Source: Mobula hypostoma (lineage: Eukaryota). From it: DNA of 64,000 bases. Positions 1,290 through 63,920 of this stretch are shown piece after piece. The DNA is taken from the NCBI RefSeq assembly GCF_963921235.1, contig NC_086097.1, positions 54,004,001-54,068,000 of the forward strand, in the 5' to 3' direction. Both the position numbers and the translations under genes were made by a program. The notes under the pieces are model-generated. The model did not search any database, had not been told where the DNA came from, and saw nothing but the letters and a program-made list of their open reading frames with translations. Each line of letters begins with the position of its first letter. Positions within the stretch are counted from its first letter, which is position 1.

Positions 1290-1440
1290 TTTTTCCCTTC
1301 CCCCCAACCTTTTTATTCTAGCATCTTCCCTCTTCCTTCTCAGTCCTGATGAAGGGTCTCTGCCCAAAACATGGACTATTTATTCATTTCCATAGGTGCT
1401 ATCTGACCTGCTGAGTTGCTCCAGCATTGTGTTTTGTTTT
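1290..1440 (+). mobile_element. Penelope-like element 3' end (pLTR) fragment with degenerate hammerhead motif
   Basis: Pyrimidine-rich tract, then cagtcCTGATGAagggtctctgcccAAAACATGgacta and gacctgctgagttgctccagc. The same layout follows the GIY-YIG-like remnant at 63450-63560. Confidence 0.7.
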
Positions 1441-1537
1441 TACAAGTAAATCCAATTTTCCCATTTTTCTGCTCTCATGCCTTCTCCCTTACACAAGAAA
1501 TGAGGTATTTCTTCTCTGCAAAGACAGCATTGCTAGG

Positions 1538-1730
1538 ATGAGGAATTCCGCAGATGCTGGAAATTCAAGCAACACACATCAAAGTTGCTGGTGAACGCAG
1601 CAGGCCAGGCAGCATCTCTAGGAAGAGGTACAGTCGACATTTTGGGCCCAGACCCTTCGTCCCTGACAACTGTACCTCTTCCTAAAGATGCCGCCTGGCC
1701 TGCTGCGTTCACCAGCAACCTTGATGTGTG
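1538..1730. mobile_element. Short Penelope-derived insertion with 62-bp inverted arms
   Basis: Arms 1573-1634 and 1669-1730 are near-perfect reverse complements. 13-bp TSD cagcattgctagg at 1525-1537 and 1731-1743. Confidence 0.8.
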
Positions 1731-3529
1731 CAGCATTGCTAGGCTTCATATTCAACAGGTCATCATCCCTCATTGTCAATGTAGAGTCACAGAGCCAGAG
1801 TTATACAGGCTGAAAATAGATCATTCAGCCAACTCATTCATGGCAACCAAGGTGCCAGCTGACCCATCCTATCTGCCTTTCTTTTGGCCCATATCCTTCT
1901 AAATCACTCCAATCCCTATACCTATCTAAACATCTTTTCAACTTTGTCATTGTTCCTGCCTCTACCATTACCTGCAGCAACTTGTTCCATACACCCAGTC
2001 AGGTCCCCTGTAAACCTTGTTCTCACCTTAGATACAGGTCGTCTAGTTTTAAACTCTACACCAAGAGAAAGACTATCATGTACAATTTATCTTTGTTTCT
2101 CCTGATTTTCTAATCCTCTAAGGTCATCCCTTAACCTCCTTCATTCTGGAGAAAATAGCCTCATACTATCCAGAACCTTCTTATATTTCAAGCCTTCCAG
2201 TCCTGAAACATCCTTGTGAATATTTTCTGCAATCTCTCTAGCACAATACAATACACAAATTTTGGTGTCATCCACTAATTATTCCACCTATATGCTCACT
2301 TGGAAAAATAACCCTCCAAACCTTCCACTACTATCCTTGGACTCCTTCCACCAAGCCAATTTTGTATCCAAACAGCTGGCTCACCAAGGTCTCATATGAT
2401 CTTCCCTTTTGGACAAGCCTATTGTGTGGGATCTTAACAAATGCCATGTGGACAATGTCTACCACTCTGCTCTCATCAATTCTCTAGCTCACCTCTTCAA
2501 AGAAACTGAATCAAGTTCATGAGATTTCCCAAAGAACCATGCTGACTACCTCTCCTTACTTTCCAAATGCAGATAGATCTTGCCTCTCATGTAATTAATC
2601 ACACCTCTTTCAGCATTACCAAGGGTTTAATTTCACCATGACCTAATGGTTCACTCTTCCCTTTTCCCTGCCCTTCAAACCAGCCTATGCAAAGACATTG
2701 CCCATCTATTTTCTAACTGTCTAGTCCCCACTTACACTTGTTAGATTCTTACCACCATTGACATTCTAACAAGTACTGACCCAGGGGATAGCTACCAACA
2801 TCTTAGGAACTGGGATAGATGAGCAAATTGGTGCAATGAGTGAACATTTCAAAACTTGCCTTGGTGTCACACTGTACTGGTAGGCGTGCTCTACCTTCCT
2901 ACTGGCAAACTTTTTTTCTTCCACTGGATCACTGGAACCTACCCTATTAAGCTGATTTTAAAAGGAAATGGGCAAAACATTAAAGAACCATTTGTATTTT
3001 AGTCAACATGTTCAAGAAGACAAGGTGCAGGTTATGTTCTACAGCTGATGTTCAAGGTGGAGATGTGTTTAGTTTTTATTTTATTGGTCATTTTAATGTT
3101 ACGGGAAATTCCTGTCCATCCCTAATTGTCCTTGAATTGAGGGGGCAAGGGACAACCATGTTCAGGTGTCTGAAGCTATGTATGTACTGTACTTGACTTG
3201 GCAAGGATGAAAGATTTCTTTCCCTTACGAATATTAGTAAACTAAATAGGTTTCTACAAACACTTCATGCCAGAATGCCCTCCAGTTTACTTTGACCTAT
3301 AATCATAATGATGAAAAGGTTAGGGGTCATAAACTCAATTAGGGGTCAGATAAGACAACGTCAGAACAGTCTTGTTTCAACACACAAGACTGAAATGAGA
3401 ATGGACTATGTGACATCGTATCGAGTTTGAAATGGGGAGGAATATATTGAATTCATTTTTCACAAGATTACCAGACAAAACAAAAATAGCTTATTTAAGA
3501 CTGTGTGTAAAAAAAACCACAAGATATTT

Positions 3530-3650
3530 TGCAAATATTGGAAATCTTGAGGATTACACACGAAGTGCTGGAGGAACTTAGCAGGTCAGTCAGCATCTAT
3601 AAAGAGGAATAAATAGCCAATGTTTCAAGTCAAGAGCGTTCATCAGCTGT
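3530..3650 (-). mobile_element. Degraded Penelope-like pLTR fragment
   Basis: Minus strand reads CTGATGAacgctcttgacttGAAACATT followed by gacctgctaagttcctccagc. Confidence 0.6.
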
Positions 3651-5435
3651 ACAAAATAAGCAGTTTGATGGCATAGAATTACTGGAGTAGTAGAGGTGGA
3701 AGTGGGTAGTGTCAGTGTGTATGTGAATGCTGACCCCCAAAGCTACAGATAAAAGTACAAGAGCTTTTTGAGACTCTAAAGAGAGATCAAAGAACAGAAA
3801 CTGCTAGAGATCTGGGGATGATTTGAGAAGCAATTGAAAAAAGTCCCAATCATCTGTACAAAGGAAGTGGTATGAAAGGAAGCAGAGAACGTGCGGCAAA
3901 GTCAGAGAAGGTTAGAGTCTTTACAGTGTTGCCTTGGGGTAGAAAACTGAAGAGATTTTAGAATGGGCTTGTGGAAAATAGGGACAATAATTTTCATATG
4001 AAAAGAGAAAATTATCTATAAAATTAGTTTTCAATGGTAGAAGTGTGGTTGACTTTTGGGGAAGGTAGGTGACTGTTGGAGAGTTACCTGAGAATTGAAC
4101 GCTATTTTCTAAATCAAATACAATATTGAATAGGCATAATTTGTAAATAGGCAGCTTCCAAGGCTCATGTATGATAATTGCTGTTTAACGCTGTCTTGCC
4201 CTACATGATTTCTTTCCCACTTCAATAGAAAAGGTTAATTAAGACTCTAGAACAGGCTATTGCTTTGTATCATTCATTTTGTATTCTTCACCAAGGAAAT
4301 TTTCTTCCCCCTTCACAGCTTTATAAAGCCACAATATAATCAAGTGACTGGGTAATGGTGGGGCGGGGGGGGGGGGGGAGCTCCCTCTCAAATATGGTTT
4401 CTTCATTGAAGGTAAAGAAAACCATCAAGAATGAACTTAAAAACTAAATACTCAAGGCTGGTATTTCTCAACAAAAGGTCTGTGTATCAGTGTTAATTTG
4501 CAGGAGCATTTTCTTTTCTTCAGACTAAATAAACCATAAATATATAAATAATGGCAGAGATTTCTGAGTAGAGTGGAATTTCACAACAGCTCATCTAGAT
4601 TCTGATCCACTGCAGCCCTCTCTGGAGCACAGGGGGGCATACCCAGTGAGCAGCTAACTGTCATCATCGTTACTGCAACATTCCACCTCAATACCAGGCT
4701 CATTGAGAGCCCTTAATTCAACAATGATTGGGAAGCCCAAAGATGTATCTCCCTATCTGTTTGCATGAAGTGTTCATCAAATAAGCCTGCTGTCATGATG
4801 GGAGCCCTTTCCTTGAAGTGGACATTATTTCTTTTCTTTTTTAAAAAGTTAATTGGGTAAAAGAATAATAACTGTATGATCATTAGTTTAAAAATAACAT
4901 TTTGCAACATCAAGCCAACTTATTTTTTTTAGCCTGGTGCTGAATAAACCTTGTATCATTATGGGTGCTGGAATAAATTGGGACCACTCCACAGAAAATG
5001 CACAATTTTTCCCTTTGGAGATGGGTGCAGTGTTAAAGATCATTGTGATAAATAACTGCATTACTTGGCTTGGGAGAAACAAAATTAAGTTCTGTGCTTA
5101 GAGGCAGCAGCTCACGTCCACCCTGCCAGATAACATTTTTATTGATTGGCATCTGTGGCAACTACATGAATTTATTTGAGGACTGTAATGACAACAGTGT
5201 GCCAGAACAAGGAGGACAAATTATCCAGCTCATTTGTGTCTAAATTCAAATTATTCATGGTGCTGAGAATACATGAAAATACAACCATGATAAATGACTC
5301 TTTTATTACCTTTCTTTTGATAAACAGTGATGTACATCAAACATGGATATCCTTGGAGGTACCTTCATCTCTTTGGGAATGCTAAAGTCCCATCAAGAAG
5401 TAAAATAGAACATAGAACAGTACAGTACAAGCCCT

Positions 5436-7237
5436 TGAAGACAGAAGCCCATGGGCCCTTGAAGACAGAAGCGGGTGAATTTATAATGGGGAACAAGGAA
5501 ATGGCAGACGAGTTGAACAGGTACTTTGGATCTGTCTTCACTAGGGAAGACACAAACAATCTCCCAGATGTAATAGTGGCCAAAAGACCTAGGGTAATGG
5601 ATGAACTGAAGGAAATTTATATTAGGCAGGAAATAGTGTTGGATAGGCTGTTGGGTCTGAAGGCTGATAAGTCCCCGGGACCTGATGGTCTGCATCCCAG
5701 GGTACTTAAGGGGGTGGCTTTAGAAATCGTGGATGCATTGGTAATCATTTTCCAATGTTCTATAGATTCAGGATCAGTTCCTGTGGATTGGAGGGTGGCT
5801 AATGTTGTCCCTCTCTTCAAGAAGGGAGGAAGAGAGAAAACAGGGAATTATAGACCGGTTAGCCTGACGTCGGTGGTGGGAAAGTTGCTGGAGTCAATTG
5901 TAAAAGATGAAATTATGACACATCTGGATAGTAGTAACAGGATTGGTCAGAGTCAGCATGGATTTACAAAGGGGAAATCGTGCTTGACTAATCTGGAATT
6001 TTTTGAGGATGTAACTCTGAAAATGGACAAGGGAGAGCCAGTGGATGTAGTGTACCTGGACTTTCAGAAAGCCTTTGATAAAGTCCCACATAGGAGATTA
6101 GTGGGCAAAATTAGGGCACATGGTATTGGGGGCAGAGTACTGACATGGATTGAAAATTGGCTGGCTGACAGAAAACAAACAGTAGTGATTAACGGGTCCC
6201 TTTCGGAATGGCAGGCAGTGACCAGTGGGGTACCGCAGGGTTCAGTGCTGGGACCACAGCTGTTTACGATATATATTAATGATTTAGATGAGGGAATTAA
6301 AAGTAACATTAGCAAATTCGCTGATGACACAAAGCTGGGAGGCAGTGTGAAATGTGAGGAGGGTGTTATGAGAATGCAGGGTGACTTGGACAGGTTGGGT
6401 GAGTGGGCAGATGCATGGCAGATGCAATTTAATGTGGATAAATGTGAGGTTATCCACTTTGGTGGTAAGAATGGGAGGGCAGATTATTATCTAAATGGAG
6501 TCAAGTTAGGAAAAGGGGAAACACAACGAGATCTAGGTGTTCTTGTACATCAGTCACTGAAAGCAAGCATACAAGTACAGCAGGCAGTGAAAAAAGCTAA
6601 TGGCATGCTGGCCTTCATAACAAGGGGAATTGAGTACAAGAGCAAAGAGGTCCTTCTGCAGCTGTACAGGGCCCTGGTAAGGCCACACCTGGAGTACTGT
6701 GTGCAGTTTTGGTCTCCAAATTTGAGGAAGGACATTCTTGCTATTGAGAGAGTGCAGCATAGGTTCACAAGGTTAATTCCCAGGATGGCGGGACTGTCAT
6801 ATGTCGAAAGATTGGAGCGACTGGGCTTGTATACTCTGGAATTTAGAAGGCTGAGAGGGGATCTTATTGAAACACATAAGATTATTAAGGGATTGGACAC
6901 GCTGCAAGCAGGAAGCATGTTCCCGTTGTTGGGTAAGTCTAGAACCAGAGGCCACAGTTTAAGAATTAGGGGTAGGCCATTTAGAACAGAGTTGAGGTAA
7001 AACTTTTTCACCCAGAGAGTGGTGGATATATGGAATGCTCTGCCCCAGAAGGCAGTGGAGGCCAAGTCTCTGGATGCTTTCAAGAAAGAGATGGATAGAG
7101 CTCTTAAAGATAGCGGAATCAAAGGTTATGGGGATAAGGCAGGAACTGGATACTGATTGTGGATGATCAGCCATGATCACAGTGAATGGCGGTGCTGGCT
7201 CGAAGGGCCGAATGACCTACTCCTGCACCTATTGTCT
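5436..7237 (+). mobile_element. 5'-truncated CR1 LINE (ORF2 RT to 3' UTR) inserted into an older antisense CR1 tail
   Basis: RT motifs SPGPDG, NYRPVSLTS, YLDFQKAFDKVPH, GVPQGSVLGP, KFADD; 3' UTR gaagggccgaatgacctactcctg. 7-bp TSD aagccct at 5429-5435 and 7238-7244. Confidence 0.92.
5453..7156 (+). pseudogene. CR1 ORF2 reverse transcriptase, lacking the endonuclease, with one premature stop at 6998-7000
   Basis: ORF 5327..7000. The frame continues past the TAA as NFFTQRVVDIWNALP...GTGY to TGA at 7154-7156. Confidence 0.9.
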
Positions 7238-7244
7238 AAGCCCT

Positions 7245-11516: not shown

Positions 11517-12359
11517 ACCCAATTGAGATGCTGTGGCATGACCTGAAGGCTATTAATGCAAAATATCCCAGAAATACTGATAAAATGAAACAGTTTTGTA
11601 TGGAGGGATAGTCTAAAATTCCTCCAAGCTGACTTGCAAGACTGATTAACAGTTACCAGAAACATTTGGTTGAAGTTACTGCTTTACAAGGAGGTCACAC
11701 CAGTTACTGAAAGCAAAGGTTCACATACTTTTTCCAACAAATACATATAATATTGGATCATTTTTCTCAATAATTAGTACAATGTTTTTGTGTTATTTAT
11801 GTAATTCGGTTCTCTTTATCCAATTTTATGACTTGTGTGAAGATCTGATCACATTTTAGGTCATCTTTATGCAGAAATAGAGAAAATTCTACAGGGTTTA
11901 CAAACGTTCTAGCATCACTGTATTTTGCAATTGATGTTTCAACATCAAGACGGTGCTGCCTGATAATCCCTGAGCTATAGCTTTGACAGATTTATTTCAA
12001 TAAAAGAATCAAATGACTCAGATCCTGAAATTTTTTTACTACAAGACAAAAAGTAGGAATGTTAGAAATACTCAGCAGGTCTGGCAACATATGTGAAAGA
12101 GAAACAGATTAAGTGCTTCAGGTTCAAAACCTTTTGTCCATCAGATGATCTAGAATATTACAAACCTCTTGTATTACAAGCCTTCTGTATTCCAGGGTTA
12201 CTCTACTTTATGCAATCTTTCCTCCTAATCCAACACTAAACCCTAATAATCTTCTCTTGAACCAACTCTGCTTCTTCCAGGATCAAAATATCAAACGTAA
12301 GGAGCAGTGACCATATCCTATACATTGTAAGCCAGATGTGATCAAGTTTTGTCTTACTA

Positions 12360-14042
12360 CAGTGCCTATAAAAAGTATTCACCCCCTTGGAAACTTTCAT
12401 GTATTATTGTTTTACAGAATTGAATCACAGTGGATTTAATTTGGCTTTTTTTAAAAACTCTGATCAACAAAAAATTCTCTTTCATGTCAAAGTGAAAACA
12501 AATTTCTGTAAATTGGTTTAAATTTATTACAAAATTAAACACTAAATAATTCATTGCACAAGTCACCCCCCCCCCCACCATTTCCCATTCCCCTTTTCCC
12601 TCTCACATGTTATCTCCTTGCCTGCCCATCACCTCCCTCTGGTGCTCTTCCCTCCCCCTTTTTTCTTTCTTCCATGGCCTTCTGTCTCTTTCACTAATCA
12701 ACTGCCTAGCTCTTTGTTTCATCCCCCCACCACTTCCAAGTTTCACCTATCACCTGGCATTTCTCTCTCCCCTCCACCCACCTTCCAAATCTACTCCTCC
12801 ATTTTTTTCCCCTCCAGTCCTGCCAAAGGGTTCAGCCCAAAATGTCAACTGTGCTTTTTCTCCCCCATAGATTCTGCCTGATCTGCTGAGTACCTCCAGC
12901 ATTTTGTGTGTGTTGCTTGGATTACCAGCATCTGTAGATTTTCTCTTGTTTGTGATTTGATTGCATAAGTATTCACCTCCTTCAAGTCAGTATTTAGTAG
13001 ATGCATCTTTGGCAGCAATTACAGCCTGGAGTCAGTGTGGATGGGCCTCTATCAGCTCAGCACATCTAAACACTGCAATTTTTCCTCATTCTTTAAAACA
13101 ACCACTCAAGCTGTCAGATTGCACGGGGATCATGAGTGAACAGCCCTTTTCAAGTCAAGCCACAATTTCTCAATTGGATTGAGGTCTGGACTCCAACTTG
13201 GCAACTCCAGGACATTAACCTTGTTGTTTTTAAACCTTTCCTGTGTAGTTTTAGCTACATTCTTGGGGATTGTCTTGCTGGAAAACAAATCTTCTCCCAA
13301 GTCACAGTTCTCTTGCAGACCGCATCAGGATTCCCCTGTATTTTGCTGCATTAATTTTACCTACTACCTTTACAAGCCCTCCAGAGCCTGCTGCAGTCTC
13401 TCCCATCTCAGCCACTGAAGCTTGAATCTCTTCCAGAGTTGTATAGGTCTCTTGATGGCCTCCCTCACTAGTCCCCTTCTTGCGCAGTCACTCAGCTTTT
13501 AAGGACAGCCTGCTCTGGGCAGATTTACAGCTGCACCATATTCTTTCCATTTCTTGATGATTGACTTAACTGTACTCCAAGGGATACTCAGTGATTTGGA
13601 AAATTTTCTTGTATCCCTCTCCTGACTTGTGCTTTTCAATAACTACTTTGCAGAGTTGCTTGAAGTGTTCTTTTGTCAGGATACTGACTCACCAGCAGCT
13701 GGATTCCACCTACAGGTGTATTTTTACTGCAATCAATTGAAACACCTTGACTGCACACAGGTGATCTCCAGTTAACTCATTATGTGACTTCTAGAACCAA
13801 TTGGCTGCACCAGTGATGATTTGGTGTGTCATATTGAAGGGGGGGGGGGTGGTGAATACTTATGCAATCAATTATTTTGTGTTTTATATTTGTAATTGAT
13901 TTAGATAACTTTGTAGAGATCTATTTTCACTTTAACATGAAAGAGTCTTTTTCTTGACCAGTGTCAAAAAAACTAAATCAAATCTACTGTGATTCAATGT
14001 CATGAAAACATCCGGGGTAATGAATACTTTTTATAGACACTG
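12360..14042 (-). mobile_element. Internally deleted Tc1-like element with long (~200 bp) terminal inverted repeats
   Basis: TA|cagtgcctataaaaagtattcaccc ... gaatactttttatagacactg|TA. The inverted similarity extends through gaatcacagtggattt and tttcatgtcaaagtgaaaa. Transposase-like remnants on the minus strand. Confidence 0.8.
12564..12959 (+). mobile_element. Penelope-like 3' fragment inserted in the Tc1 TIR
   Basis: Pyrimidine-rich UTR and hammerhead-like motif at 12815-12851. Probable TSD attgcacaagt (12553-12563) / attgcataagt (12960-12970). Confidence 0.75.
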
Positions 14043-35862: not shown

Positions 35863-35971
35863 GCAAACAACAGGAATTCTGCAGATGCTGGAAATTCAAG
35901 CAACATACATCAAAGTTGCTGGTAGATGCTGCTTGGCCTGCTGCGTTCACCAGCAACTTTGATGTATGTTG
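35863..35971. mobile_element. Short Penelope-derived inverted-arm insertion in an old antisense CR1 (~35365-36310)
   Basis: Perfect 24-bp inverted repeat 35900-35923 / 35949-35972. 14-bp TSD ctcggtattccaag at 35849-35862 and 35972-35985. Confidence 0.8.
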
Positions 35972-38730: not shown

Positions 38731-39879
38731 TTTTTTTAATTATTGTTCTTCATCTTTTTGTGTTTTATTTTATGCTGCATCAGGTCCAGAGTAACAATTA
38801 TTTTGTTCTCTTTCTCACTTGTATACTGGAAATGGCATGAAACAATCTTGAATGGGATGGAATGGTAAAAAAAAATGACACTTGGAGAAGGGATGGTGGT
38901 GGGTAATCAAAGAACTGTAGACCAGAACCAGAAAGAAATTCACTAATCTTTCATGAATAAACAAGACAACAAAATGCCTCTCATTATTCATTTTTTAGGT
39001 AGCTTGGAATTAGTTTTCATATTTTGAAATCAATGGCTTCACCCAGTACCATGGCTGAGGCTTCACGAATGCTAAATCTGACGCAATGTTTCTCTATGTA
39101 CTGTCCAGGTAGTAAACAAGTCACCGCAATGGCAACTGCAGACTTGCAAGTCAGCCAAGAGGCGTTTGTGTTTTTCTTTCGTTCATATTTTCTGTTGCTT
39201 GCTTAGACATTCTCTTTGCTTCATCTGCCAAGACCACTATACTATTAACAAACTCTATCAGGCTAATTTTAATAAAGTACCTAGGGAAAACTGAAATAGG
39301 ATAAATGCTGCCAGTAATAGCCAAGACTGGGTGAAGTGAGGAATGTCTGACCATGAACTTGAAATACAGGTTACGGCAATTATGATTAAGGTAATAACAC
39401 AGTAAATGCAGATTGATTGGACATGACCCCCACTGCCTGAGGAACAGCCATAGCACCAAATAGTTGCTACCACTGTTATGATTCCACACCTGAAACTTAC
39501 CTAAGGAAAGCCTTTGAGTGGGAGAAATGAAGCCTTACTTGCACAGGAAAGAGAAAGGCAGGGAACATGCAGACAAGAAAAACATGACACAAAAATGATG
39601 CAAGATGGGTGATTTTTACTGATGAAATTCCTGCAGTAAGTGAGAAATCACACAAATTCCACAATGGGATATGAACGATCTTCTGGTCAGGTAGAGACAA
39701 AGATGTCTGAATGCTCTGAGCCTTCAGGATGGGCAATGCACTGAATGGTTTTGAAGGAATGGAGGAATGGGGTGTTGGCTGAAGTGAAGTGGCAGTTGAG
39801 AATATGTCAAGTGCCCTTTGTAGTCTTTATAATGACAGCTATATTTCCACAGTCCAAAATGAGATCAAAAAATGCCACT

Positions 39880-40070
39880 GTAAACATTCTGCAGGGCAGA
39901 CAGCATTTGTGGACAGAGAACAGAGTTAATATTTCAGGTCAAAGACCTTTTACAGGTCTGAAATGTTAACTCTGTTTCACTCTCCTCAGATGTTGTCTGA
40001 CTGCTGAGTACTTAAGGCACCGGTTTTTTTCACAGATTTACAGTTTTTGCAAGTTTTTTTTGCTTTTGTA
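39880..40070. mobile_element. Older inverted-arm Penelope-derived remnant
   Basis: acagagttaatatttcagg / tctgaaatgttaactctgt inverted pair with a gctgagta flank. Related remnants near 12050-12135 and 44980-45120. Confidence 0.5.
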
Positions 40071-41805: not shown

Positions 41806-42984
41806 AAGTCAGATGACAAAGAAAAGTCTTTGCCTCCAGAAGCACAACACAACAGCAATCCAAAGCATTCCAGATGGCAAAGGCCTGAAGAAATTGGCAG
41901 ATGTTGTTGATGAGAATTGCTCTGTAATGAGGTGGCATGGACTGTACTGCATTACTTCTATGATTCTATTAAAGTTAATTCCTAGATTTTGGATTTCTTT
42001 CAAATTTTTAAAAATGCTACTAATCCCAAAAGTTCCTGATGTTTGCTTCTTTAAATATTTCATTATATTGATTTAATGTGGCTTTGCAGTTTTTACATAA
42101 AGGACACCAGACTATGTTTTGTGCAATCAGACATTTATGATTTCAAAATCACTTTAGCATTTATATGATGTTTTAGCAAAACAATATGGGACTATCAGGT
42201 CGTATCTTCTCAAACACAATTTATTCTCTAAATTCTGGTTTTTATAGTTTTTGTTAAAGTTTCTCAAATATGTCTTGTATGCCGCTGAGATGACAATTTA
42301 TTGTCTGACTTGGAAAAAAACAAGCAACTCTTATATATAGCAAAGTAGAAGAAAATCAAATGCACACAGGAGTCCAGAGATCATTGTACTGAAGTCCTGC
42401 AGAAATTTACTTGGAAGCCACTCCATGATCCTCACATACTAATTGTTTTATTCATACTAGGACAGCGACTGAAAATAACTTAACTTCACTTACCTCGTAG
42501 AAACCTAGTTAAAATCACAATTCAAAGTTTCTTCCACGAAGTACTTAAAATTGGAAATAGATTTTCTTATTAACAGTTCAGCAAATCGGGAAAAGCTTAA
42601 TCAGAAATCAAGAATAATGTTAGTTCATTTATAATTAGAAGCATAATTACTTTCAAGATGAAAATATTACTTTTCTTAATGTAGAAACGTTGTCAGTTGT
42701 GCAGGGTCATAACAGACAGATGTTTTAAGTACGCTTTTGCGTGAATTGTGTAAGCACCTGACTTCCGCTACACAATTGTGAACGGTTAAACAGGCTGTAT
42801 ACTGTGAGGGAGGAAGAAAGAGCAGACAAGTGTGAATATAGGCACTTCACAAATGTATCCTAAGTAGTCCATTGCTATCTATATTTGTCTGCAGAGACAC
42901 CTTACTGCATATTAATAGACTAACAGTGGAAGGTAAGCAATTTATAAGACAGGCACAAATATATTAAACAGAAAACCCTGGACT

Positions 42985-47597: not shown

Positions 47598-48704
47598 TAT
47601 TTTCTGAAAGTCTATATCCATTCCTCTAACTTTTGATCACCTCCCCAGCAAATTTGGTCATATATGCCAGATATGACCTACCCTCCTCAAATGATGCTGG
47701 GTTGTTTTAATCAATTGGACAACTTCCAAGTGCTCATCACAGGTGGACAGTTTGTGAAGTAGGTATTCCTTTCACCAGGCTGCAGTAATCTCCCAAAATA
47801 CTACCTGATCCACAACTTCCCTTTTCTTTTTTTAATATTTTCTTAAGTAGGTGTACATATTTCAGAATTTTCCTGTCTGAATGAATACTTCCAAAATCAT
47901 AGGACAAATGAGCTGCTTTCAGTTACTTCCATTGAAAACCTATGATTCTGGCAATCTCCAAACCATCGATTGAAATGATGGCAATCAATTTCTTATTGCA
48001 CAATCATGACTGGCTGATTGGAAGTCAAATTACTGCTCAGGATTCTAATATTTAATTTCAATAATCATTTGCTAGCTCATTTTCTATGTTAGGTGGCTGA
48101 CAGTTGTAACAAGAGCAGAGGCTCCCCTCTGCAAGTTGTCAGTGGCATGGAGTGTCCAAACACAGGTGCTGTTTCGCTCAGGCCAGGCACAAGGGATTTG
48201 GTGGGAATTAAGTGACCAGAAAGCTACAGTCTTTTGATAAAGTGAACCACAAGGTTGGGCAGAGTAGCAAATGGAAGCAGAAGGGGTGAGGGAGACTGGA
48301 AGTAAATATGTTGAAAGCTAATTATTCTCTTCCTGAAGCCCAGAGAGAGTTGTTTATCTTCTTGCCAGACCTGCTTCCTTCAAGCCTTTGATAGGCCATA
48401 CGATCTGACCTGATTTACACACTATTTCTCCAAGGCAGTTCCTTTCTTTTTCAACTTCTCTGTAGCCATTATCATGTTTGACCACACCATCCTCCCCCAA
48501 AGTTTCTGCACCATTGTCCGGCCAAATGGGATTACACGTATTCATTCAGTTGCAGTCAGAGATTCAGCTTTAACGGCTTTGGTTCACACACGCACCCAGT
48601 GACTTCTGGTGTACCACCCACCCCTTCCCCCAAAGATTATTCCCCTTCCTTGAGCTGCCTTCAGCAAAGTGACATGAAAACAGCATCATTTTCCAGTTGC
48701 ATCA

Positions 48705-49090
48705 TAAAAAAAATTGGAGGAACTCAACAGACCATGCTGTACAAACAGAGGCAAAACAATGGTTGATACTTCAGGCCATATCTCTGCTTCTGTACTGAGA
48801 GTGTACAGGGAGATAGCCATTGTAAAACAGTAAAAGGGAGGGGTGAAGCAGGGAATGACAGATGGTAGGTGAAATCAGGTAAGGTCGGTGATGATGGGTA
48901 GATGGAGCTAGGTGCACGAGGGGGAGGGTTTGCGTCAGGAGAGAGTGGCAGATGGGTAATGGGTAGAGATAGGTCTCGACCAGAAACGTTGACTATTCTT
49001 TTGCCTCCTTGGATGCTGCTTTACCTGCAGTGTTCCTCTAGCACTTTGGTTTCTTGTTCCATTTTCCAGCCTCTGCAGTCCTTTGTGTTA
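48705..49090. mobile_element. Degraded inverted Penelope-like remnant
   Basis: Antisense arm (ggaggaactcaac..., purine-rich) then sense arm ggtctcgaccaGAAACGTTgact...gatgctgc. Confidence 0.55.
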
Positions 49091-49402: not shown

Positions 49403-51691
49403 CAGTGATTCCCAGTGGGGGTGGTTACATGTCCTAAGGGCATTCGGGGAAATAGAAGTTATTGGGGGCATTCAAGATTCTTGGGGGGAGAGGAGGGATG
49501 ATAAGCAGGACGCTTACTTGAGGCATGAGACCTGACTGACCGTGACAACTTGCTGCCATTATCAACATCCGACAGGCATTTCCAGTTTGTGTTAATTTTT
49601 TATTTTAATTTAGCCCAGTTAATGATGGATAAATACGGACAGCATGATCTCTATGAGCCTGAAGGCTGTGAAGCCTTGGATTCTAATCCTGCTAAGAAAC
49701 AGAAACTACAGAAAATGCATCAATACAATGTTACATACCTGGAGTATTGTTTTATTCTGTTCCCAGCAGATCAGCAACACGCCATATGTCTTATTCGTCA
49801 TACTGCACTGTCTAATGAAGCCATGAAAGCTTCAAGATTGCAGGAACATTTCTATGAAAGACTCCCTGAAAAGGCTACTTATGGTATTACTCAGTTCCAG
49901 AAGATGAAAGAAGCATTTGAAAAGCATTGCACTCTCGAATCATTTGCCAAGAAAGCTAAAAATGACCTTGATCGTTGTCTCATTGCTTCTTATAACATTT
50001 CCAAAATGATAGAAAAGTGTGGAAAATCTCATACAATTGGTGAAAGATTAATAATGCCTGCTATATCAGAAGTGCTCACCACTGTTCTCAAAATGGATAC
50101 CAGTATTTTAAAATCAATTCCTCTGAGTAATAACTCTGTAGATTGTAGTAGTGATGAAATGAGTGAAGACATTAAGTATCTGTGACAGAAAACAAAATTT
50201 GGGATACAGCCGGATGAGTAAACTGTGTGAGACAATGAGGCATTGCTAACGGCATATGTACGGGTTTATCAAAAGTGGAAAAGTTTATGAAGAGATTCTC
50301 TTTTGTAAAAAGTTATAACAAATATCAATAGAGAATTAATTTATGACAAGCTCAAAATGTATATTGAGGATAAAAGTATTCAGATTAGGAACATGATTTC
50401 TCGTGCACCAGTTGAAGCACCATATATGACAGGTTGCCTTGCTGGTTTAGTGGCATTAAAATGAAAAAAGAAATTCCAAGTCTGTTTGCAATCCATTGTG
50501 TAATTCATTGTCAACATCTTATAGCCAAAAACCTCAGCCAGCAACTTTTTTCAAGTGTGACTCTTGAATATCTGCTATCAACAGAATTAAAGCTCATCCA
50601 TTAAATAGCAGAATATTTCACCAGTTATGCCAAGATAATGATGAAGAGCTTACTTCTTCATACTAACATGCATTGGCTGTCAAAATGCTACTGCTTAAAA
50701 TATTTCTTTGATCTTTTTGACACTGTGGTTGAATTTTTGCTCAAAGTCAACAAGAGCTTGGGAAATAAGATTGAATTTCTGTGTGGAGATGTGGCACACC
50801 TAGCCAATCTGTATGATAAAATGAACATTCGAAATATGAAACCGCAGGGTGAGAATTTCAACTTAATCCAGGCAAAAAGTGCGGTGTCCTCTTTTATAGG
50901 AAAATTGGAAATATATAAGCAGAACATTAGAAGAATGTACTCAAAGTTTCCCTGCATGGAAAGTATGGCACTCCCTTTCATAGACAGTGATTTGCAAGAG
51001 TACTTCTTACACCTACAGTCACTGAAGAAGGATTTTCAAAATTTATTCAAGGATTTGAATGATCTGGAAATTCCGGACTGGGTAACTAACTTATTTCTTT
51101 GCAAGGTGGAAGCACAGGAAAAGAGCTTGCAAGAAGAAATGATTGAAATTCAGAATGATGAAGAAGCAAAACTGCCTTTCAGGAATGTCAGCTTTTGTGG
51201 TATGTACCTACACTATCATACAAGGTTTCCTGGTCTTTGGAGAAGAGCCAAACTGCTCTTGATTGCATTTCCATCCTCCTACCTTGTTGAAAGAGGCTTC
51301 AGTGCAGTGAACCACATACTCACGAAAAACAGAAACCGCTTGGGCATTGTTATGCATGGAGACTTAAAGCTTTTGCTGTCACAACTTGAACCAAATGTTT
51401 CAACTTTTGCTAAAAACCATCAACCTCAAGGATCACATTGATATTCAAACTGCTGTACAGCACACAGGTACTATGTAACTAGGTTTAAAGACAATTAAAA
51501 ATTTAAAACAGAATCATTTTTCTCATGTTAGCATATGGTAGACATGTTTTTACATTATGGGGGCACCAGAAAGTACATTGTGCCTAACAGGGGGTTGGGA
51601 AGTATGAAAGTGCTTTGTGGTGGGGGGGTGTTGGCAAGCATGAGAGTGCTTTAGGGAGGCGTTGAGCTAAAAAAAAGGTTGGGACACACTG
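49403..51691 (+). mobile_element. hAT (Buster/Charlie-type) DNA transposon
   Basis: TIRs cagtgattccca / tgggacacactg. 8-bp TSD atctatgc (49395-49402) / atctattc (51692-51699) with central TA. Confidence 0.88.
49622..51441 (+). pseudogene. Buster-type hAT transposase pseudogene (ZBED5/SCAND3-like family)
   Basis: LSNEAMK..L, KSHTIGERLI, IPLSNNSV, IHCVIHCQHL, WLSK, FPSSYLVERGFS; stops and frameshifts at 50185-50640. Confidence 0.88.
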
Positions 51692-51755
51692 ATCTATTCT
51701 CAGTAAATCTGATGCAAGATTCCTAACGCAGTATCACATTCACCTAATTACTGAG

Positions 51756-51899
51756 ATCAAACAAGAGAAAGTCTGCAGATGCTGGAATTCAAGGAAATCC
51801 AAAAACTTCCTGCTGAAGGGTTTCACCCGAAACATCGACTGTACTCTTTTCCATAGATGCTGCCTGGCCTGCTGAGTTCCTCCAGTATTTTGCGTGTGT
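51756..51899. mobile_element. Short Penelope-derived insertion (inverted terminus plus sense hammerhead-bearing arm)
   Basis: 11-bp TSD taattactgag at 51745-51755 and 51900-51910; cCTGCTGAagggtttcacccGAAACATCgactg at 51809-51841. Confidence 0.8.
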
Positions 51900-52019
51900 T
51901 AATTACTGAGCTTACTGATTTATCTTTCTTTGCCCTTTGTTTTCAAATCATTCAACAGCTCTGTAACTACTCATCCAACTCTGCATCCCCGCTTCCCAAA
52001 CATCTTCAGCTCTCTACCA

Positions 52020-57359: not shown

Positions 57360-60300
57360 GGAACATAGAACAGTACAGTACAGTACAGGCTCTTTGGCCC
57401 ACAAAACTGTGCAGAACTTTTAACCTATGACAAGAACAATCTAACCCTTTCCTCTCACATAACCCTCTATTCTTCCTTCATCCATGTGCCTATCTGAAAG
57501 TCTATTAAATATCCCTAATATATCTGCCTCTACCACCACCCCTGGCAGTGTGTTCCATCCACCCATCACTCTGTGTCTAAGAAAAAACCTACCACAGATA
57601 ATCTCTCTGTATTTCCTCCAAGCACCTTAAAAATATGTCCTCTAGTATCAGCTATTGCCACCCTGGGAAAAAGTCTCTGACTGTGCATTCTGACCATGCT
57701 TTTATCATCTTATACAGCTCTGTCAAGCTTCCTTTTGTCCTCCTTTGCTCCAAAGAGAAAAGCCCTAGCTCGCTCAACCTTTCTCATAAGAAATGTTTTC
57801 GAATCCAGGCAGCATCCTGGTTAATCTCCTCCAAGTGTTCTCCAGAGCTTCCACATCCTTCCGGTAATGAGGTGACCAGAATTTAACACAAAATTCTAAG
57901 TGTGGTATAACCACAGTTTTATAGAGTTGCAACATTACCTCACGGCTCTTGAACTCAGTCCCCCAACTAACAAAGGTCAACATATTATATGTCTTCTTAG
58001 CCATCCTATCAACTTGCAAGGCAACTTTGAGGAATCTGTGGACTTGGACCTCAAAATCCTGCTGGTTCTCCCCACGGCTAAGAACCCTGCCATTAACCCT
58101 GTACTCTGCCTTCAAGTTCAACCTTCCAAAGTGTATCACTTCACACTTTTACGGATCTGCCACCTCTCAACCCAGCTCTGCATCCTGTCAATGTCCCGTT
58201 GTAACCTACAATTACTTTCTACACTGTCCACAACACCATCAACTTTTCGTTACCTGTATACTTACTAGTCCATCCTTCCACTTCCTCATTTACTGCAAGT
58301 CATTTATAAAAATCACAAAGAATCCCTGCGGAACGGAAATAGATTTAGACCTCCAGGCAGACCCGCTGAGTTCCTCCAGCATGTTGTGAGTGTGACTCTT
58401 CTTCGCCTACTTTCTGTCAGCAAATCAACTGCAAATACATGCAGCCAAGTTCCTCTGGATTCCATGGCCCCTAACTTTCTGAATGAGCCTACAATGGGTA
58501 ACCTTGTTGAACACCTTACTAAAATCGTATATGTCACTTCCACTGCTCTACTTCAGCAATTCGTCTGGTCACTTCCTTGGAAAAAATAAATGAGGCTCGT
58601 AAGGCACAACCTGCCCGTCACAAAGCCATGCTGACTATCCCTAATCAGACGATGCTTCTCCAAATGCTTGTAGATCCTGTCTCCAGGAATGAATCTGAGA
58701 TATTCTGCCCACCACTGATGTAAAACTCACTGGTTTATAATTCCCAGGGTTATCTCTATTACCCTTCTTTAGCAAAGGAATAACATTTCCTACCCTCCAA
58801 TCATCTATTACCACTCCTGTGGCCAGCAAGGCCACAAAGATCATTGCGGAAGGCGCAGCAATCTTGTTTCCTGTAGTAACCTGGCTTATATGCCGTCTGG
58901 CCCCAGGGACTTCACTATCCAAATGTTATTCAAATGTTACAGCACACCCCCTTTCTTAATGTTGACATATTCTAGCATATCAGCCTGTTTTGCGTTGTCC
59001 TTATGACATCATGTTCCCTCTCATTGCTGAGTACTGAGCTAAGTATTCATTAAGGACCTCTCCTAACTCCTCCCTTCCCTGCCTCAATGGGACAAACCTA
59101 TACAGAACCCCATGCAAGAGCTCCTTAAACAACCTCCACATTTCTGTTTTGCATTTCCCTGAATACATCTGTCCCCAATTAATAATCCCAGGCACCTGCC
59201 TAAAAGCATCATAATTAGACCTTTCCCCCAGTTAAGTACTTACCCATACTGCCTGCTCCTATCACTGTCCAAGACTATGGGAGAGGTCGGGGGGTTATGG
59301 CCACCGTCTCAGAAAAGCTTGCCCACCGAGTTATCTGTCAGTTGACCAGGTTCATTGCCTTGTACTAGATCCAGCATGGCCTCTCCTCTAGTTGGCCTGT
59401 CCACCTATTATGTCAGGAATCCTTCCTGGACACACCTGACATATTCTGCCCCATCTAAGCCTCTTGTACTAAGGAGGTATCACCCACAACTTTCAAGGAT
59501 AATTCATCTCATGTTCTCAATATTTAATGCTTATTTATTTATTTATTATTTGTTTTTTTTTCTTTTGTTTTTTCATAGTTTGTTGTCTTTTGCACTTTGG
59601 TTGTTTGCCCTGTTGGGTGCAGTCCTCCATTGATTCTATTTTGATTATTGGATTTACTAAGTATGCCCACAAGAAAATGAATCCCAGGGTTGGATATGGT
59701 GAAATATATGTACTTTGATAACAAATTTACTTTAAACTTGGAACCCTGACACTTCTCACATTAAAGTAAGCATACTTCAGCCCATCCAAGTACTGCAATT
59801 ATGCCTTTTCCAGTGTTGTCCTTCCTCACAGTCTCTCCACACATTGCATCTATCTTTACACCAATTGCTCCATCCTCTGATTTACCACTTTGGATCCCAT
59901 CCCACTGACAAACTAGTTTAAACCCTCCCCAACAGCCTGAGCAAACCTGCTCAAAAGGATATTGGTCTCTCTTGAGTTCAGGTTTAACCCATCCCTTTTG
60001 TATAGGTTATAACTTCCCAGAAGAATCTATGATCCACAACAAATCTAAACCCAGTCGCCCACACCAAATCTTCAGCCACATCCTCATCGGCCAAATAATA
60101 CAATTTTTACCCTCATTGGTACTTGGCGCAGGCAGCAAACCTGAGATTATTACCTCTGAGGTCCTGCTTATTAGCTTCCTTCCCAGCTCCCTATATTCAC
60201 TCTTCAGGACCACATGCATTTCCCTAGCTATGTCTTTCATACCAATAGTTGCCACAACTTTTGGCAGCTCTCCCTCCCCCTTACGAATGCTGTGAATTCG

Positions 60301-60360
60301 ATCTGAGATGCTACTAACCTTGGCGGCCGGGACGCAACATACCATTCGGGTGTCGCTTAC
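57360..60360 (-). mobile_element. Long degraded CR1 with ORF1 esterase remnant and nested small insertions (~58325-58392, ~59480-59745)
   Basis: Minus-strand MVCCVPAAKVSSISDR (ORF1), GNYKPVSFTSVVG, PHLEFCVKFWSPHYRKD; gaacatagaacagtac tail at 57361. Confidence 0.82.
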
Positions 60361-62002
60361 ACATCCACAGAATCACTTGTCTGTGGAACCTAACTATTTA
60401 ATCCTCTATTACCACCGCTCTCCTATTCTTCCCTCTTCTCTCTTCCCTTCTGAGCCACAGAGCCAGACTCTGTCTTGGAAACCTGGTTGCTGAAGCTTTT
60501 TCTCTTCCCTTTCCCTCACCAGACAGATCTCAGCTACATGCCTCCTGCAACTTAGGTGTGACTGCCTCTCTGTAGCTCCTATCGATGGCCTCCTCATTCT
60601 CCTCCAAACCTTGGAAGTTGCCCTCCAAGCCATTCACCATCTTGAGTCAAAATCCTGGAACTCCTCCCTAACTTCATTGTGGATATACCCACACCTTAAG
60701 GACTTCAGTAGTTCAAGAAGGCAGGTCACCACCACCTTGTCAAGGGCAACTGGGGATGGGCAATTAAAAGCTGGCTCAGCCTATGAAGCCCATGTCCCTT
60801 GAATGAAGAAAAACAATATTGTATTATTTTTAATAATACTTTTTAAGAGATTTGTACTTTTTAATAAACTCATGTACTTTTCACACTTGCTGGCAGAAGG
60901 TGGTATAACAGCTAAACTAACGGTATGTCACCTTTCTCATGTTTCATTGGCTGAGTATTAGCATATTACTCATGTGATGTAATTGTTATCATTATGTAGC
61001 TTATTAACAAATTTACCTCTAAGGAATTTCTCTTATCTTATCTATAACAGTGATAGATTTTTCAGAAGCATCATCTTTATTCTTTTGTCTTCGCATGAAT
61101 TCCCCTCTTAGCACTGTTTCTTAGTTCCTTATTTAGTTTTGTTAGCATTTGTATGTTTGATTGTGCTCTAAAATAAACTGAAATCTTGGAATTAAGACTG
61201 CTCACCATTTTTGACTCCTTGGAACAAACTTAAGGATCATAAATAAGCAGAGATCCAACATGAGGTAGCTGATCAAGATCATGATACTAATGGACTGCTA
61301 TTTCCTGCAGGAATAGAGCTCTGCCGATGCCTGAACACGTGTGCCTGGGTTTTAAAAATGTGGAGGATATTTTAATTTCAGTCTACATTGTGGACATGGA
61401 CAGTCAGTCAGCCACTGACAAATGGATGTGGCCTTTTTGAATCAACAGATGGGACTTACATTTTTTTCCTATCTCATCTGAAGCAGTTGGAAACTATATT
61501 AGCTCATGATTTCATTACATGACTGATTCTATTACCAGTACATTTGATAATCTGTCTTTATGGCTTGCAAATTGCATGCCTGAGATGATAGAAAAATAAC
61601 AAAGGTACAATGCCTGTGAATCTTTCAAATTGTTATCTTACATAATTGTTTCATTGTCTTTAAGCTGCATGAAAGAGCAAATTGAAGGCATTAAATTTAC
61701 CTCCAGGCATCAATTTTTGGAAACTACAATTGTAGCTTGCTACACATCAGCAATCAGTGGCACCATGCCACCAATTTGACATATAAAAGCTCACTGAGGC
61801 TGCTTACGTGGGGTAGGATTAAGGCCTAAGTACTTATCAGGCAACACTCTGCTATTTCCTTTGTATCTGCTGGAATTTCTCCAGAACTAACTGTTCTTAA
61901 AGTGATATCATCCGCTCGAACTGCAGTTTTACAAAACAGTAGGTAGTGTCATTAATAGTCAGGATACACAAGAATACTACTTGATGTCACTTCAAATATG
62001 AA

Positions 62003-62470
62003 GATTAGATTAGATTAGATTCAACTTTATTATCATTGTGCCGAGTACAGATACAAAGCCAATGAAATGCGTTTAGCATCTGACCAGAAATGCAAAGAAT
62101 AGTGTTATTTACAAAATAACTGCGAATTAAAAAAGTGCTACAGCACACAAATATAAAAGTACTGAGACAGTACAATACGGAAGCAATACTGCTTAGCGCT
62201 GTGATGAGAGGTTCAGCAGGGTCACAGCCTCAGGGAAGAAGCGCTTCCTGTGCCTGCTGGTGCAGGAGTGGAGGCTCCTGTAGCGCCTACTGGATGGGAG
62301 GAGAATAAAAAGTCCATGGTTAGGGTGAGATGCATCCCTGATAATGCTTTTCGCCCTGCCCAGGCAACGCTCATGGTAGATGTTCTCAATGGTTGGCAAC
62401 TGGGTGCCGATAATCCGCTGGGCAGTTTTCACCACACGCTGGAGTGCTTTGCGGTCCGATACGGGACAAT
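62003..62470 (-). mobile_element. Rex1/Babar 3' fragment with (AATCT)n tail
   Basis: DRKALQRVVKTAQRII...HPNHGLF.LLPS.RRYRS...FFPEAV. Confidence 0.85.
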
Positions 62471-63339
62471 GATTTAGAATCATTGAAGATGATTCATTGA
62501 AGATGGGACAATGAAGATGATTTATTATCTCCAAACTATAAATATTGCATTATGTTTTCATAAATCTTAATGTTAGTTATAGTTATCCACTGTATACATG
62601 TTTAAAAAGACTTTAAAAGATATATCATATGAGAATTTTAAATTTATATTAAAGCATTCATCACAACACCTATCATATCAAATTGCAGATAACAATAATA
62701 AAATTAAATTAGCCCTCTCCCACCAGGATAATTTAAGAACCATCAGCTCTATGGTATTCAATTGTTATTTCAAAGCATTTTTCTTGTATTCTTGCTGATA
62801 TGTTATTGCCACTAGTTTTCATATGTCACACATATAGATTCAAAACCTTTAACAAAGTGTATATAAAAAATAGAGACCAAGAGAGCAATGCTTGGGAGGC
62901 AACTGCAAAGGTAAACAGCCTTGTTCATGTCTTATGGGTACATGACTTTTAGACATTTTTATGCAATCATGAGTTGAGTATGGATAATAGATTCAATTCT
63001 GTTTTTTATCCTTAATTGAATTTAGGGACGATGATGTTGAGATATCTTCTTGAACACAGCTCATGTGGTTTCACACTGAGCAAGAAGGTAGGTTACTTGA
63101 AACTATGGTAACTCACCCAAAATGCCGGAGGAGCTCAGCATGGGCAACAACTATAGAAAGGAAGAAAGAGTCAATGTTTGGAGCTCTCTTGCTGAAAACC
63201 CAGAGTAGCATGCACCCACTTCATCAGCTACTTGGTAGGAAGTGTGTTAGAGTGACAAAGCAATGGCACTTTCCTCAGAATATCACTATCTGTTTGGGAT
63301 ATACTTAGCCCTGCAAGCATCTAACGTGCTACCCAGACC

Positions 63340-63920
63340 ATTCACCTCCATTCAAGGCCCCAAACAGTCCTTCCGGCTGAGGCAAAAGCTGGAAGCAGAA
63401 CTTCCCAGAGGTGAAATATTTTAATTCCTATCCCTAATCCTGTTCTGACATGTTGGTCCATGGCTATGATGAGACTACCCTCAGGATGGAGGTGCAGCAC
63501 TCCATATTCCGTCTCAATAGCCTCAAAGTTGATGGCATGAATATCAATTTCTCCTTCCGTAAAAATACATATTCCTTTTCCCTTCCCTTTTCTTCTGTTG
63601 CCCACTCTGACTTCTTACCTAGTCTCACCTACCTAACACCTCCCCCTGGGTCCCCTTCTCTTTCCCTTTCTCCTATGGTCCACTCTCCTCTCCTGTCAGA
63701 TTCCTTCCACTCCAGCCTTTTGGCTTTCCCACCCTCCTAGCTTCATCTATCACCTTCCAGCTGTCCTCCTTCCCTTCCCCCCACCTTTTTATTCTGGCAT
63801 CTTCCCCCTTCCTTTCCAGTCCTGAAGAAAGGTCTTAGCCCAAAACGTTGACTGTTTGTTCATTTCTGTGGATACTGCCTGGCCTACTGAGTTGCTCCAG
63901 CATTTTGTGTCTGTTGCTTG
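63340..63920 (+). mobile_element. Penelope-like element 3' part: GIY-YIG endonuclease C-terminal remnant, pyrimidine-rich UTR, hammerhead-like motif
   Basis: RMEVQHSIFRLNSLKVDGMNINFS resembles the PLE C-terminal E..hI..L....P.GhN motif; cagtcCTGAAGA...AAAACGTTgactg at 63817-63854. Confidence 0.75.

What the first reader, a model, noticed from the sequence alone, without database searches (positions are those of the whole stretch)
1341..63854. Dispersed minimal type I hammerhead-ribozyme motif in Penelope-derived repeats
Seen: related motifs at 1341-1378 (+), ~1631-1662 (-), ~3614-3646 (-), 12815-12851 (+), ~48971-48994 (+, 3' half), 51809-51841 (+) and 63817-63854 (+). Their combined consensus is cagtc-CTGAnGA-a-ggg(tctcgg)ccc-GAAA-CGTC-gactg. 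Stem I is cagtc/gactg, stem II is ggg/ccc, both catalytic boxes are present, and the cleavage triplet is GUC. Helix III is reduced to the palindrome ACGT, so it could form only in a dimer. Established: Penelope-like elements and retrozymes carry such minimal hammerheads. No single copy here is fully canonical, and most changes fall at CpG positions (cGAAA to cAAAA, CGTC to CATC/TGTC), so these are probably decayed copies of an active master (inference).
Basis: partly seen in the sequence, partly recalled or inferred. Interest (0 to 1): 0.7.

Follow-up and report, generated by a model that had tools for sequence, protein, structure and literature searches.

The report
Dead Penelope hammerheads, shark/ray-type genome
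The seven motifs are mutated, likely inactive leftovers of a tiny self-cutting RNA already known from Penelope-type jumping genes, so they are ordinary, but intact relatives elsewhere in this genome show that the element is copied straight through the cut site, and one copy suggests that a single RNA was likely copied twice.

Summary
All seven motifs are at the stated coordinates. They are the minimal type I hammerhead of the terminal repeat (pLTR) of a Neptune-type Penelope-like element (PLE), with about 0.7 million fragments in this 3.5-Gb genome. Young full-length elements carry an RT + GIY-YIG ORF and two hammerheads about 3.5 kb apart. The motif matches the published min-HHR consensus, and stem I covaries across distant PLE relatives.

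None of the seven window copies has an intact core. They come from at least three subfamilies, not one master. 20 of 37 changes are CpG decay, but A6C in two copies is inherited from a lineage that amplified with this damaging core change.

Copies neither start nor end at the cut site. One hyper-edited insertion shares 19 of 19 A-to-G changes between its two pLTRs, which fits one RNA copied twice (circle or template jump). A second shares only 12 of 14 and 17.

Cleavage is untested. This is a new member of a known kind. The scan had noted it before (58 notes, at least 22 genomes), including A6C and the editing clue.

The parts
1341..1378 (+). Decayed min-HHR (G12A, helix III palindrome broken) in a 5'-truncated pLTR piece at 1293-1432; old long-linker type by its linker sequence
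1631..1662 (-). Min-HHR lacking C3/U4 (cut by the inversion junction), G12A; young subfamily, 91% identical to a full-length element; minus arm of a head-to-head insertion, carries the tail
1664..1730 (+). Plus arm of the same head-to-head insertion (93% complementary to 1573-1639), no core; 13-bp target-site duplication at 1525-1537 and 1731-1743
3614..3646 (-). Decayed min-HHR: boxes kept, stem II and helix III broken (10 differences); piece 3515-3646
12815..12851 (+). Min-HHR of the A6C lineage (A6C inherited; G8A and G12A from CpG decay); piece 12736-12958
48971..48994 (+). 3' half of the motif; piece 48967-49083, paired head-to-head with a very decayed piece at 48698-48881 (-); possible 10-bp target-site duplication at 48687 and 49060
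51809..51841 (+). Min-HHR with A6C and the short-linker signature, starting at the front edge of the motif; insertion 51756-51899 with an inverted tail piece and an 11-bp target-site duplication (51745-51755, 51900-51910)
63817..63854 (+). Decayed min-HHR (G12A, G10.1A) at the 3' end of a 5'-truncated PLE fragment; old long-linker subfamily
63302..63924 (+). 5'-truncated Neptune-type PLE body with a broken GIY-YIG remnant at 63341-63554 (tblastn E 7e-15); inverted partner at 63082-63185 (-)
35863..35971 (.).
39870..40011 (.).
58357..58404 (+). Core-less 3' scrap of the same family (another lies at 12058-12132, minus strand)

Best explanation
The seven motifs are mutated, likely inactive copies of the minimal type I hammerhead that sits in the terminal repeat (pLTR) of a Neptune-type Penelope-like retrotransposon, left behind as 5'-truncated or head-to-head insertions. 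Shown: intact parents carry the motif twice, 3,513-3,517 nt apart on the sense strand, with the predicted cut about 139 nt upstream of the ORF's ATG. New copies end about 66 or about 103 nt downstream of the cut site (the PLE 'tail'), and copying runs through the site without stopping. After insertion the motif decays neutrally, mostly at CpG. Inferred: in the parent RNA two motifs would pair through the ACGU palindrome and cut after GUC, but only weakly and likely with help from the element's protein, because a lone motif folds into a core-blocking hairpin. The cut does not define the ends of the inserted DNA. Full-length copies with two pLTRs likely arise when one RNA is copied more than once through, most simply as a cut and re-ligated circle, with a template jump as the alternative. 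My odds: identity as a PLE min-HHR about 0.97; window copies inactive about 0.95; parent motif cleaves at all about 0.6; circle as template about 0.3.
For: Element: 5 of the 135 listed protein hits have a 1043-aa open frame. It shows RT motifs, a C-x4-C-xx-C linker and a CCHH-type GIY-YIG (Pfam RVT_1 E 6e-5 and GIY-YIG E 0.002, both under the curated cut-offs). Motif: it fits the published consensus CUGANGAH-G..C-GAAAN-NUH (PMC4209133 Fig. S3). In related PLEs from metagenome contigs, a core-only search downstream of the ORF found a core in 16 of 31 loci, stem I of 3 or more pairs in 11 of 16 (28 of 224 with swapped arms) and stem II in 15 of 16. On 13 aligned motifs, 24 cells change on both sides and 0 of 500 shuffles reach that (rows were picked with a stem requirement). 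Ends: 30 of 30 core-selected copies continue past GUC; 65 of 71 young 3' ends fall at +57..+75 or +95..+111. Of 68 copies holding the ORF start, 1 begins within 10 nt of the cut (1.5 expected) and 54 run through it. Decay: among 57 old copies, non-CpG core positions are 91% conserved, the downstream flank 88% and CpG positions 57%. Re-copying: in 42 insertions the 5' and 3' pLTR differ by 0.66%, against 1.6% between insertions. One insertion (L356) has 36 sense-strand A-to-G changes, and all 19 that lie in the pLTR overlap are in both pLTRs.
Against: No cleavage was measured. Rfam finds no hammerhead in the window or in two intact copies, even at E<=10. The double hammerhead (-16.7 kcal/mol for the CCC form, -11.5 for the CCT form) is less stable than two monomer hairpins (-25.8, -22.0), and in wider context the hammerhead stems are rarely formed. 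A lineage with A6C amplified (4,220 pattern matches against 1,546 for A6G plus A6T), and A6C strongly impairs other hammerheads in Mg2+ (PMC7151607). In the Anolis element, hammerhead mutants still insert in vitro (PMC11167929). The second hyper-edited insertion (L352) shares only 12 of 14 and 17 changes between its pLTRs, which a single circle does not explain cleanly. The expected avoidance of a 5' G at edited sites is not significant (p=0.09).
Confidence: 0.8

Rival explanations
1. The motif is hammerhead-derived, but catalysis is dispensable or lost in this family. The hairpin is kept for protein binding, transcription start or RT run-off, and pLTRs arise by template jumping on uncut linear RNA.
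For: An A6C lineage amplified: in the unbiased sample, short-linker copies are 7 C to 2 A, against 1 C to 45 A in the long-linker and young groups (p=1.4e-6). The youngest burst replaced G10.1-C11.1 by G-U (51 of 51 readable cores). No ends pile up at the cut site. Short copies pile up at the motif's front edge instead (28 of 119 profile starts at -35..-24). Anolis mutants still insert.
Against: The catalytic boxes are invariant while stem I covaries among elements of 40-55% protein identity, which points to selection on the catalytic fold. G-U at 10.1/11.1 occurs in several published min-HHRs. A6C RNAs could be cut in trans or in Mn2+. I did not test whether the A6C lineage made full-length two-pLTR copies.
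Confidence: 0.3
2. The repeats are an independent non-autonomous element (non-LTR retrozyme or SINE) that multiplies as tandem hammerhead units.
For: Many copies are only 100-200 bp and have their own target-site duplications. Retrozymes derive from pLTRs (bioRxiv 10.64898/2026.07.22.740005).
Against: Copies share a 3' end and have variable 5' ends that run into the PLE ORF. Close neighbours in the sample are mostly inverted pairs, and no tandem array of units was seen in 664 kb. The short copies group by parent PLE subfamily.
Confidence: 0.06
3. The window copies are host-co-opted, working ribozymes.
For: Copy density is high (about 200 per Mb), so some copies will lie in transcripts.
Against: 0 of 7 has an intact core. 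4 of 7 have G12A (G12 is the catalytic base, recalled knowledge). The core is no better kept than the flanks among old copies.
Confidence: 0.02
4. Chance resemblance of a repeat to a hammerhead.
For: The motif is short, Rfam gives no hit, and folding z-scores are weak (-0.5 to -2.6).
Against: Reversed controls are 0. The motif has the same place and strand in distant PLEs, with compensatory changes.
Confidence: 0.01

Closest known systems
Minimal type I hammerheads (min-HHR) in pLTRs of metazoan Penelope-like elements (Cervera and De la Pena 2014, PMC4209133)
   Same: Both boxes, one extra base after A9, a G-led stem II, helix III reduced to a palindrome, a short stem I, location in both pLTRs, and mostly dispersed single copies.
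   Different: No cartilaginous fish is among the 56 motifs of Fig. S3. Copy numbers here are far higher (77,238 exact-core matches of the CCC and CCT forms, against about 4,000 and 9,000 reported for coelacanth and Xenopus, by different methods). No A6C core is in that alignment.
Neptune-type EN+ PLEs (Craig et al. 2021, PMC8557442)
   Same: RT, then a CX2-5CxxC linker, then a C-terminal GIY-YIG with CCHH; partial tandem pLTRs, inverted 5' copies, a one-sided 30-40 bp tail.
   Different: The clade was not fixed by a tree here; Nematis also has the linker. Target-site duplications of 11-14 bp are clear at three window insertions.
Poseidon element PAc of Anolis (Frangieh et al. 2024, PMC11167929)
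   Same: Two internal RT start sites downstream of the hammerhead that define the tail; no ends at the cut site.
   Different: Different clade. There the ORF starts inside the hammerhead; here the ATG is about 139 nt past the cut. Protein-assisted cleavage was shown there and is untested here.
Non-LTR retrozymes (bioRxiv 10.64898/2026.07.22.740005)
   Same: pLTR-derived type I hammerheads in vertebrates, one chondrichthyan included.
   Different: Retrozymes are tandem non-coding units; these are truncated or inverted ends of a coding element.
A6C hammerhead of phage Bcep176 (Naghdi et al. 2020, PMC7151607)
   Same: The same core substitution as in one subfamily here.
   Different: That ribozyme has a stable monomer fold. 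The effect of A6C in a dimer-dependent min-HHR is untested.

Membership tests
min-HHR of metazoan PLEs | CUGANGA and GAAA boxes in the parent element | tested here: met
   15 of 18 young unbiased copies intact; exact counts
min-HHR of metazoan PLEs | Stem II closed next to the core, with an extra base after A9 | tested here: met
   G-C in older families, G-U in the youngest; G-U is also in published examples
min-HHR of metazoan PLEs | Helix III reduced to a palindrome, followed by UH | tested here: met
   ACGU then C17 in 17 of 18 young copies
min-HHR of metazoan PLEs | Stem I pairing supported by covariation | tested here: met
   11 of 16 against 28 of 224 swapped; 0 of 500 shuffles. No covariation inside this genome's family, where the stems hardly vary
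min-HHR of metazoan PLEs | Located in both pLTRs of a PLE | tested here: met
   L090, L091, L093; 42 of 44 elements examined have a direct pLTR pair
min-HHR of metazoan PLEs | Self-cleavage as a dimer or with protein | not testable with these tools
   Folding only
min-HHR of metazoan PLEs | Intact core in the seven window copies | tested here: not met
   0 of 7; they are remnants, not working members
Rfam hammerhead families | Covariance-model hit | tested here: not met
   No hit at E<=10 in the window or in two intact copies
Neptune-type EN+ PLE | Single ORF, RT followed by C-terminal GIY-YIG with CCHH | tested here: met
   (Pfam scores under the curated cut-offs)
Neptune-type EN+ PLE | CX2-5CxxC linker between RT and endonuclease | tested here: met
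   C-x4-C-xx-C in the ORF; definition from PMC8557442
Neptune-type EN+ PLE | RT phylogeny separating Neptune from Nematis | not tested
   No named reference set was fetched
Neptune-type EN+ PLE | pLTRs, inverted 5' copies, 30-40 bp tail | tested here: met
Non-LTR retrozyme | Tandem non-coding units, each with a hammerhead | tested here: not met
   None in the window or in the 600-kb sample; the whole genome was not scanned for arrays

The most novel reading that the evidence does not exclude
This genome holds a fossil record of how PLEs make their pseudo-LTRs. Near-full-length copies read through both the hammerhead cut site and the place where short copies stop, at a constant drop-off rate. 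An RNA-edited insertion carries the same 19 edits in both pLTRs. Together these would mean that one RNA, cut by the hammerhead pair and closed into a 3.5-kb circle, is reverse-transcribed more than once around, while truncated copies need no cleavage, so that an A6C-impaired lineage could still spread.
Probability: 0.3. Interest if true: 0.6.

Novelty: new member of a known kind. Interest (0 to 1): 0.3.

Why it matters
The window copies themselves matter little: they are neutral debris of a described motif. The family is useful because the role of PLE hammerheads is still open (PMC8557442 calls it unclear, and PMC11167929 finds cleavage unnecessary in vitro). This genome offers natural variants (G-C, G-U and A6C cores), young open-frame elements and RNA-editing marks, which make the circle versus template-jump question directly testable.

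Tried and rejected
Rfam scans gave no hammerhead. One search had a mistyped pattern and returned 0, so it is uninformative, and I did not scan the genome for unrelated hammerhead families.

The G-U pair at 10.1/11.1 first looked new, but several published min-HHRs have it, so I dropped it as a novelty. A cluster of 5' ends at -500..-700 (14 against 6.4 expected) did not survive a scan correction (p=0.08).

A linear template cut at the 5' hammerhead was rejected, as was a linear template starting at -30 for long copies: only 2 of the 54 that pass the cut stop at -26 or -31. Recurrent, polarised 5'-versus-3' pLTR differences, which a linear two-pLTR master would give, were not seen beyond a few two-way polymorphic sites.

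Sequencing runs: no RNA holder listed. The contigs laid cannot show RNA ends and were not used.

Lunse et al. (PMC5785218) is not held; I saw only its title in a reference list. No tRNA lies in the window.
Full report
**Observation.** All seven stretches are present as written. The window is 40.5% GC with CpG at 0.23 of expectation and lies at G000:C1:54004001-54068000 of a 3.48-Gb assembly. A profile built from 29 other copies recovers the seven with E from 3e-68 to 2e-14, against a best E of 2 in the reversed window. A broader profile gives 16 window hits and 119 hits in 60 evenly placed 10-kb stretches, with 0 in the reversed control. That is about 200 per Mb, or roughly 0.7 million fragments.

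**The parent element.** Thirty copies related to 63735-63921 share a 3' end and have variable 5' ends. The long ones translate into broken RT and GIY-YIG sequence, and the window's own 63302-63924 piece has a GIY-YIG remnant. Five of 135 listed protein hits have a 1043-aa open frame. Three of the ten long-frame loci fetched (L090, L091, L093) show two intact direct motifs 3,513-3,517 nt apart, in pLTRs 97.8-99.2% identical. The ORF has RT motifs, a C-x4-C-xx-C linker and a CCHH-type GIY-YIG, the Neptune/Nematis layout (PMC8557442, passages). One of the five frames (L089) has lost a catalytic aspartate; I did not check the other four. The closest proteins by identity are from the bamboo shark Chiloscyllium punctatum (72% and 68%), so the host is inferred to be a cartilaginous fish.

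**The motif.** It fits the min-HHR consensus of Cervera and De la Pena (PMC4209133; main text parts 1-2 of 4 and supplement file 2 parts 1-2 of 3 read; file 1 could not be searched). Inside this genome the stems hardly vary, so I tested covariation on 80 related PLE loci from metagenome contigs. Of 35 loci whose match reached the ORF end, 31 had at least 150 nt downstream. A core-only search found a core in 16 of them, 96-276 nt after the match, with stem I of 3 or more pairs in 11 and stem II in 15; swapping arms between loci gave 28 of 224. On 13 aligned motifs (3 from this genome, 10 from the contigs, picked with a stem requirement), the three core-proximal stem I pairs are never broken and vary on both sides; 0 of 500 shuffles reach the observed 24 two-sided changes. 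Rfam gives no hammerhead hit even for intact copies.

**Folding.** An intact monomer folds into a hairpin in which GACG of the first box pairs with CGUC and blocks the core. The double hammerhead is 9-10 kcal/mol above two such hairpins, and in 100-190 nt of context the hammerhead stems have probabilities of 0.26 or less. This agrees with the low dimer activity reported for min-HHRs and the protein dependence of the Anolis ribozyme (PMC11167929, parts 1-2 of 4).

**State of the window copies.** None passes a strict descriptor. Against a natural intact copy they show 37 differences, 20 of them CpG transitions (p=1.5e-4), and four have G12A. Among 57 old unbiased copies only 7 keep both boxes. 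Non-CpG core positions are 91% conserved, the downstream flank 88% and CpG sites 57%. This is neutral decay after insertion.

**Several masters.** A tree of 46 copies built without the core separates an old long-linker clade (holding window 63817), a second small clade, a poorly resolved A6C group (holding window 12815) and a young clade in which the CCT form is nested (100/100). The CCT form has 57,510 exact matches against 5,799 for the mirror CpG product, so the youngest master itself had G10.1-U11.1. This pair is already in the published alignment. A6C has 4,220 matches against 1,546 for A6G plus A6T, shares flank signatures, and is tied to the short-linker type in the unbiased sample (7 C to 2 A, against 1 to 45). 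One of the 14 A6C rows in the tree is a sporadic change in the young clade. A6C cut the rate of another hammerhead to 3.55e-6 per min from 0.3 at 0.3 mM Mg2+ (PMC7151607, part 1 of 4). I found A6C before looking at earlier notes; notes e1-7808234 and e1-9834341 report it too.

**Ends.** Thirty of 30 copies chosen by the core alone continue past GUC. Of 71 young copies (pattern required about 15 nt beyond the cut), 36 end at +57..+75, 29 at +95..+111, 4 earlier, and 2 run on into the ORF. This is the known tail. Of 68 copies holding the ORF start (4 duplicate rows dropped; two others share a flank), the 5' ends fit one exponential (mean about 700 nt, KS p=0.48); 1 lies within 10 nt of the cut, 54 pass it and 52 pass -31. 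The ratio of 722 ORF-start matches to 57,510 cores implies a similar mean of about 780 nt (rough, as the patterns differ). Short copies behave differently: 28 of 119 profile starts fall at -35..-24, and 7 of 40 precisely mapped young ends fall at -40..-24. That test followed a lead from notes e1-9927094, e1-9897000, e1-7910813 and e1-9150879. So long copies come neither from an RNA cut at the 5' hammerhead nor from one that starts just before it.

**One RNA copied twice?** Following note e1-8158691, I fetched 40 more elements; with 4 held earlier, 42 of 44 had both pLTRs. Within an insertion the pLTRs differ by 0.66% (250 of 37,938 sites), between insertions by 1.6%. Two of 38 whole units carry sense-strand A-to-G clusters (36 and 17; the other 36 have 0-4), as A-to-I editing of the RNA would leave (inference; 5'-G avoidance p=0.09). 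In L356 (G000:C9:135639600-135644080) all 19 edits in the overlap are in both pLTRs. In L352 (G000:C40:72295400-72299840) 12 of 14 and 17 are shared, and its inverted arm follows the 3' pLTR. The two insertions share only 3-6 sites with each other. L356 needs a step in which one sequence was copied into both pLTRs: a circle as proposed in PMC4209133, a template jump, or an edited DNA parent followed by either. L352 fits a single circle less well. DNA alone cannot tell these apart, and n is 2.

**Comparison and novelty.** This works like, and by the tested features is, the min-HHR of an EN+ PLE. It is not a retrozyme (bioRxiv 10.64898/2026.07.22.740005, parts 1-3 of 5 read; its supplements were not seen and may list chondrichthyan sequences). 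Nine literature searches showed no paper on this shark/ray family, on an A6C PLE lineage or on shared edits in pLTRs. Lunse et al. was not available and may cover fish variants. Other papers were seen as passages only (PMC6765202, PMC544870, PMC2837043) or as a listing (PMC3088659). The scan's own notes already hold 58 similar findings in at least 22 genomes.

**Verdict.** Real and correctly interpreted, a new member of a known kind. The window copies are likely inert, and the interest lies in side results that bear on an open question about PLE replication. Interest 0.3.

Noticed in passing
L356 = G000:C9:135639600-135644080 and L352 = G000:C40:72295400-72299840: Full-length PLE insertions with 36 and 17 sense-strand A-to-G changes; 19 of 19 and 12 of 14/17 are shared between the two pLTRs. 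Likely RNA editing fixed by retrotransposition.
   Followed up: yes
window 12815-12851 and 51809-51841; L159-L188: A subfamily amplified with the A6C core change (4,220 pattern matches).
   Followed up: yes
L089-L098: The youngest, most numerous subfamily (about 1-2% divergence, 1043-aa open frames) has G-U in place of G-C at the base of stem II.
   Followed up: yes
window 1525-1743, 35849-35985, 51745-51910: Short head-to-head insertions with 11-14 bp target-site duplications and the tail on one arm only.
   Followed up: partly
L099-L158 and L031-L067: Short copies often begin about 30 nt before the cut site, at the front edge of the motif, whereas long copies pass this point.
   Followed up: partly
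window 26643-30049 (+), 5324-7238 (+), 57361-60372 (-): CR1-like LINE copies (name recalled from sequence type); 26643-30049 has an esterase-type ORF1 and a 789-aa endonuclease-RT frame.
   Followed up: partly
window 42968-44194 (+): A young LINE RT fragment with ALKBH8_N-like C-terminus; a related copy, 94% identical, interrupts the PLE in L002.
   Followed up: no
window 49529-51441 (+): Broken hAT-type transposase remnant (Pfam Dimer_Tnp_hAT, E 0.001).
   Followed up: no
window 24928-25471: GC-rich open frames on both strands with no Pfam hit; possibly a host exon.
   Followed up: no
L269:1982: A related PLE from a metagenome contig has intact stems around an altered first box (A6G); single copy, status unknown.
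   Followed up: no
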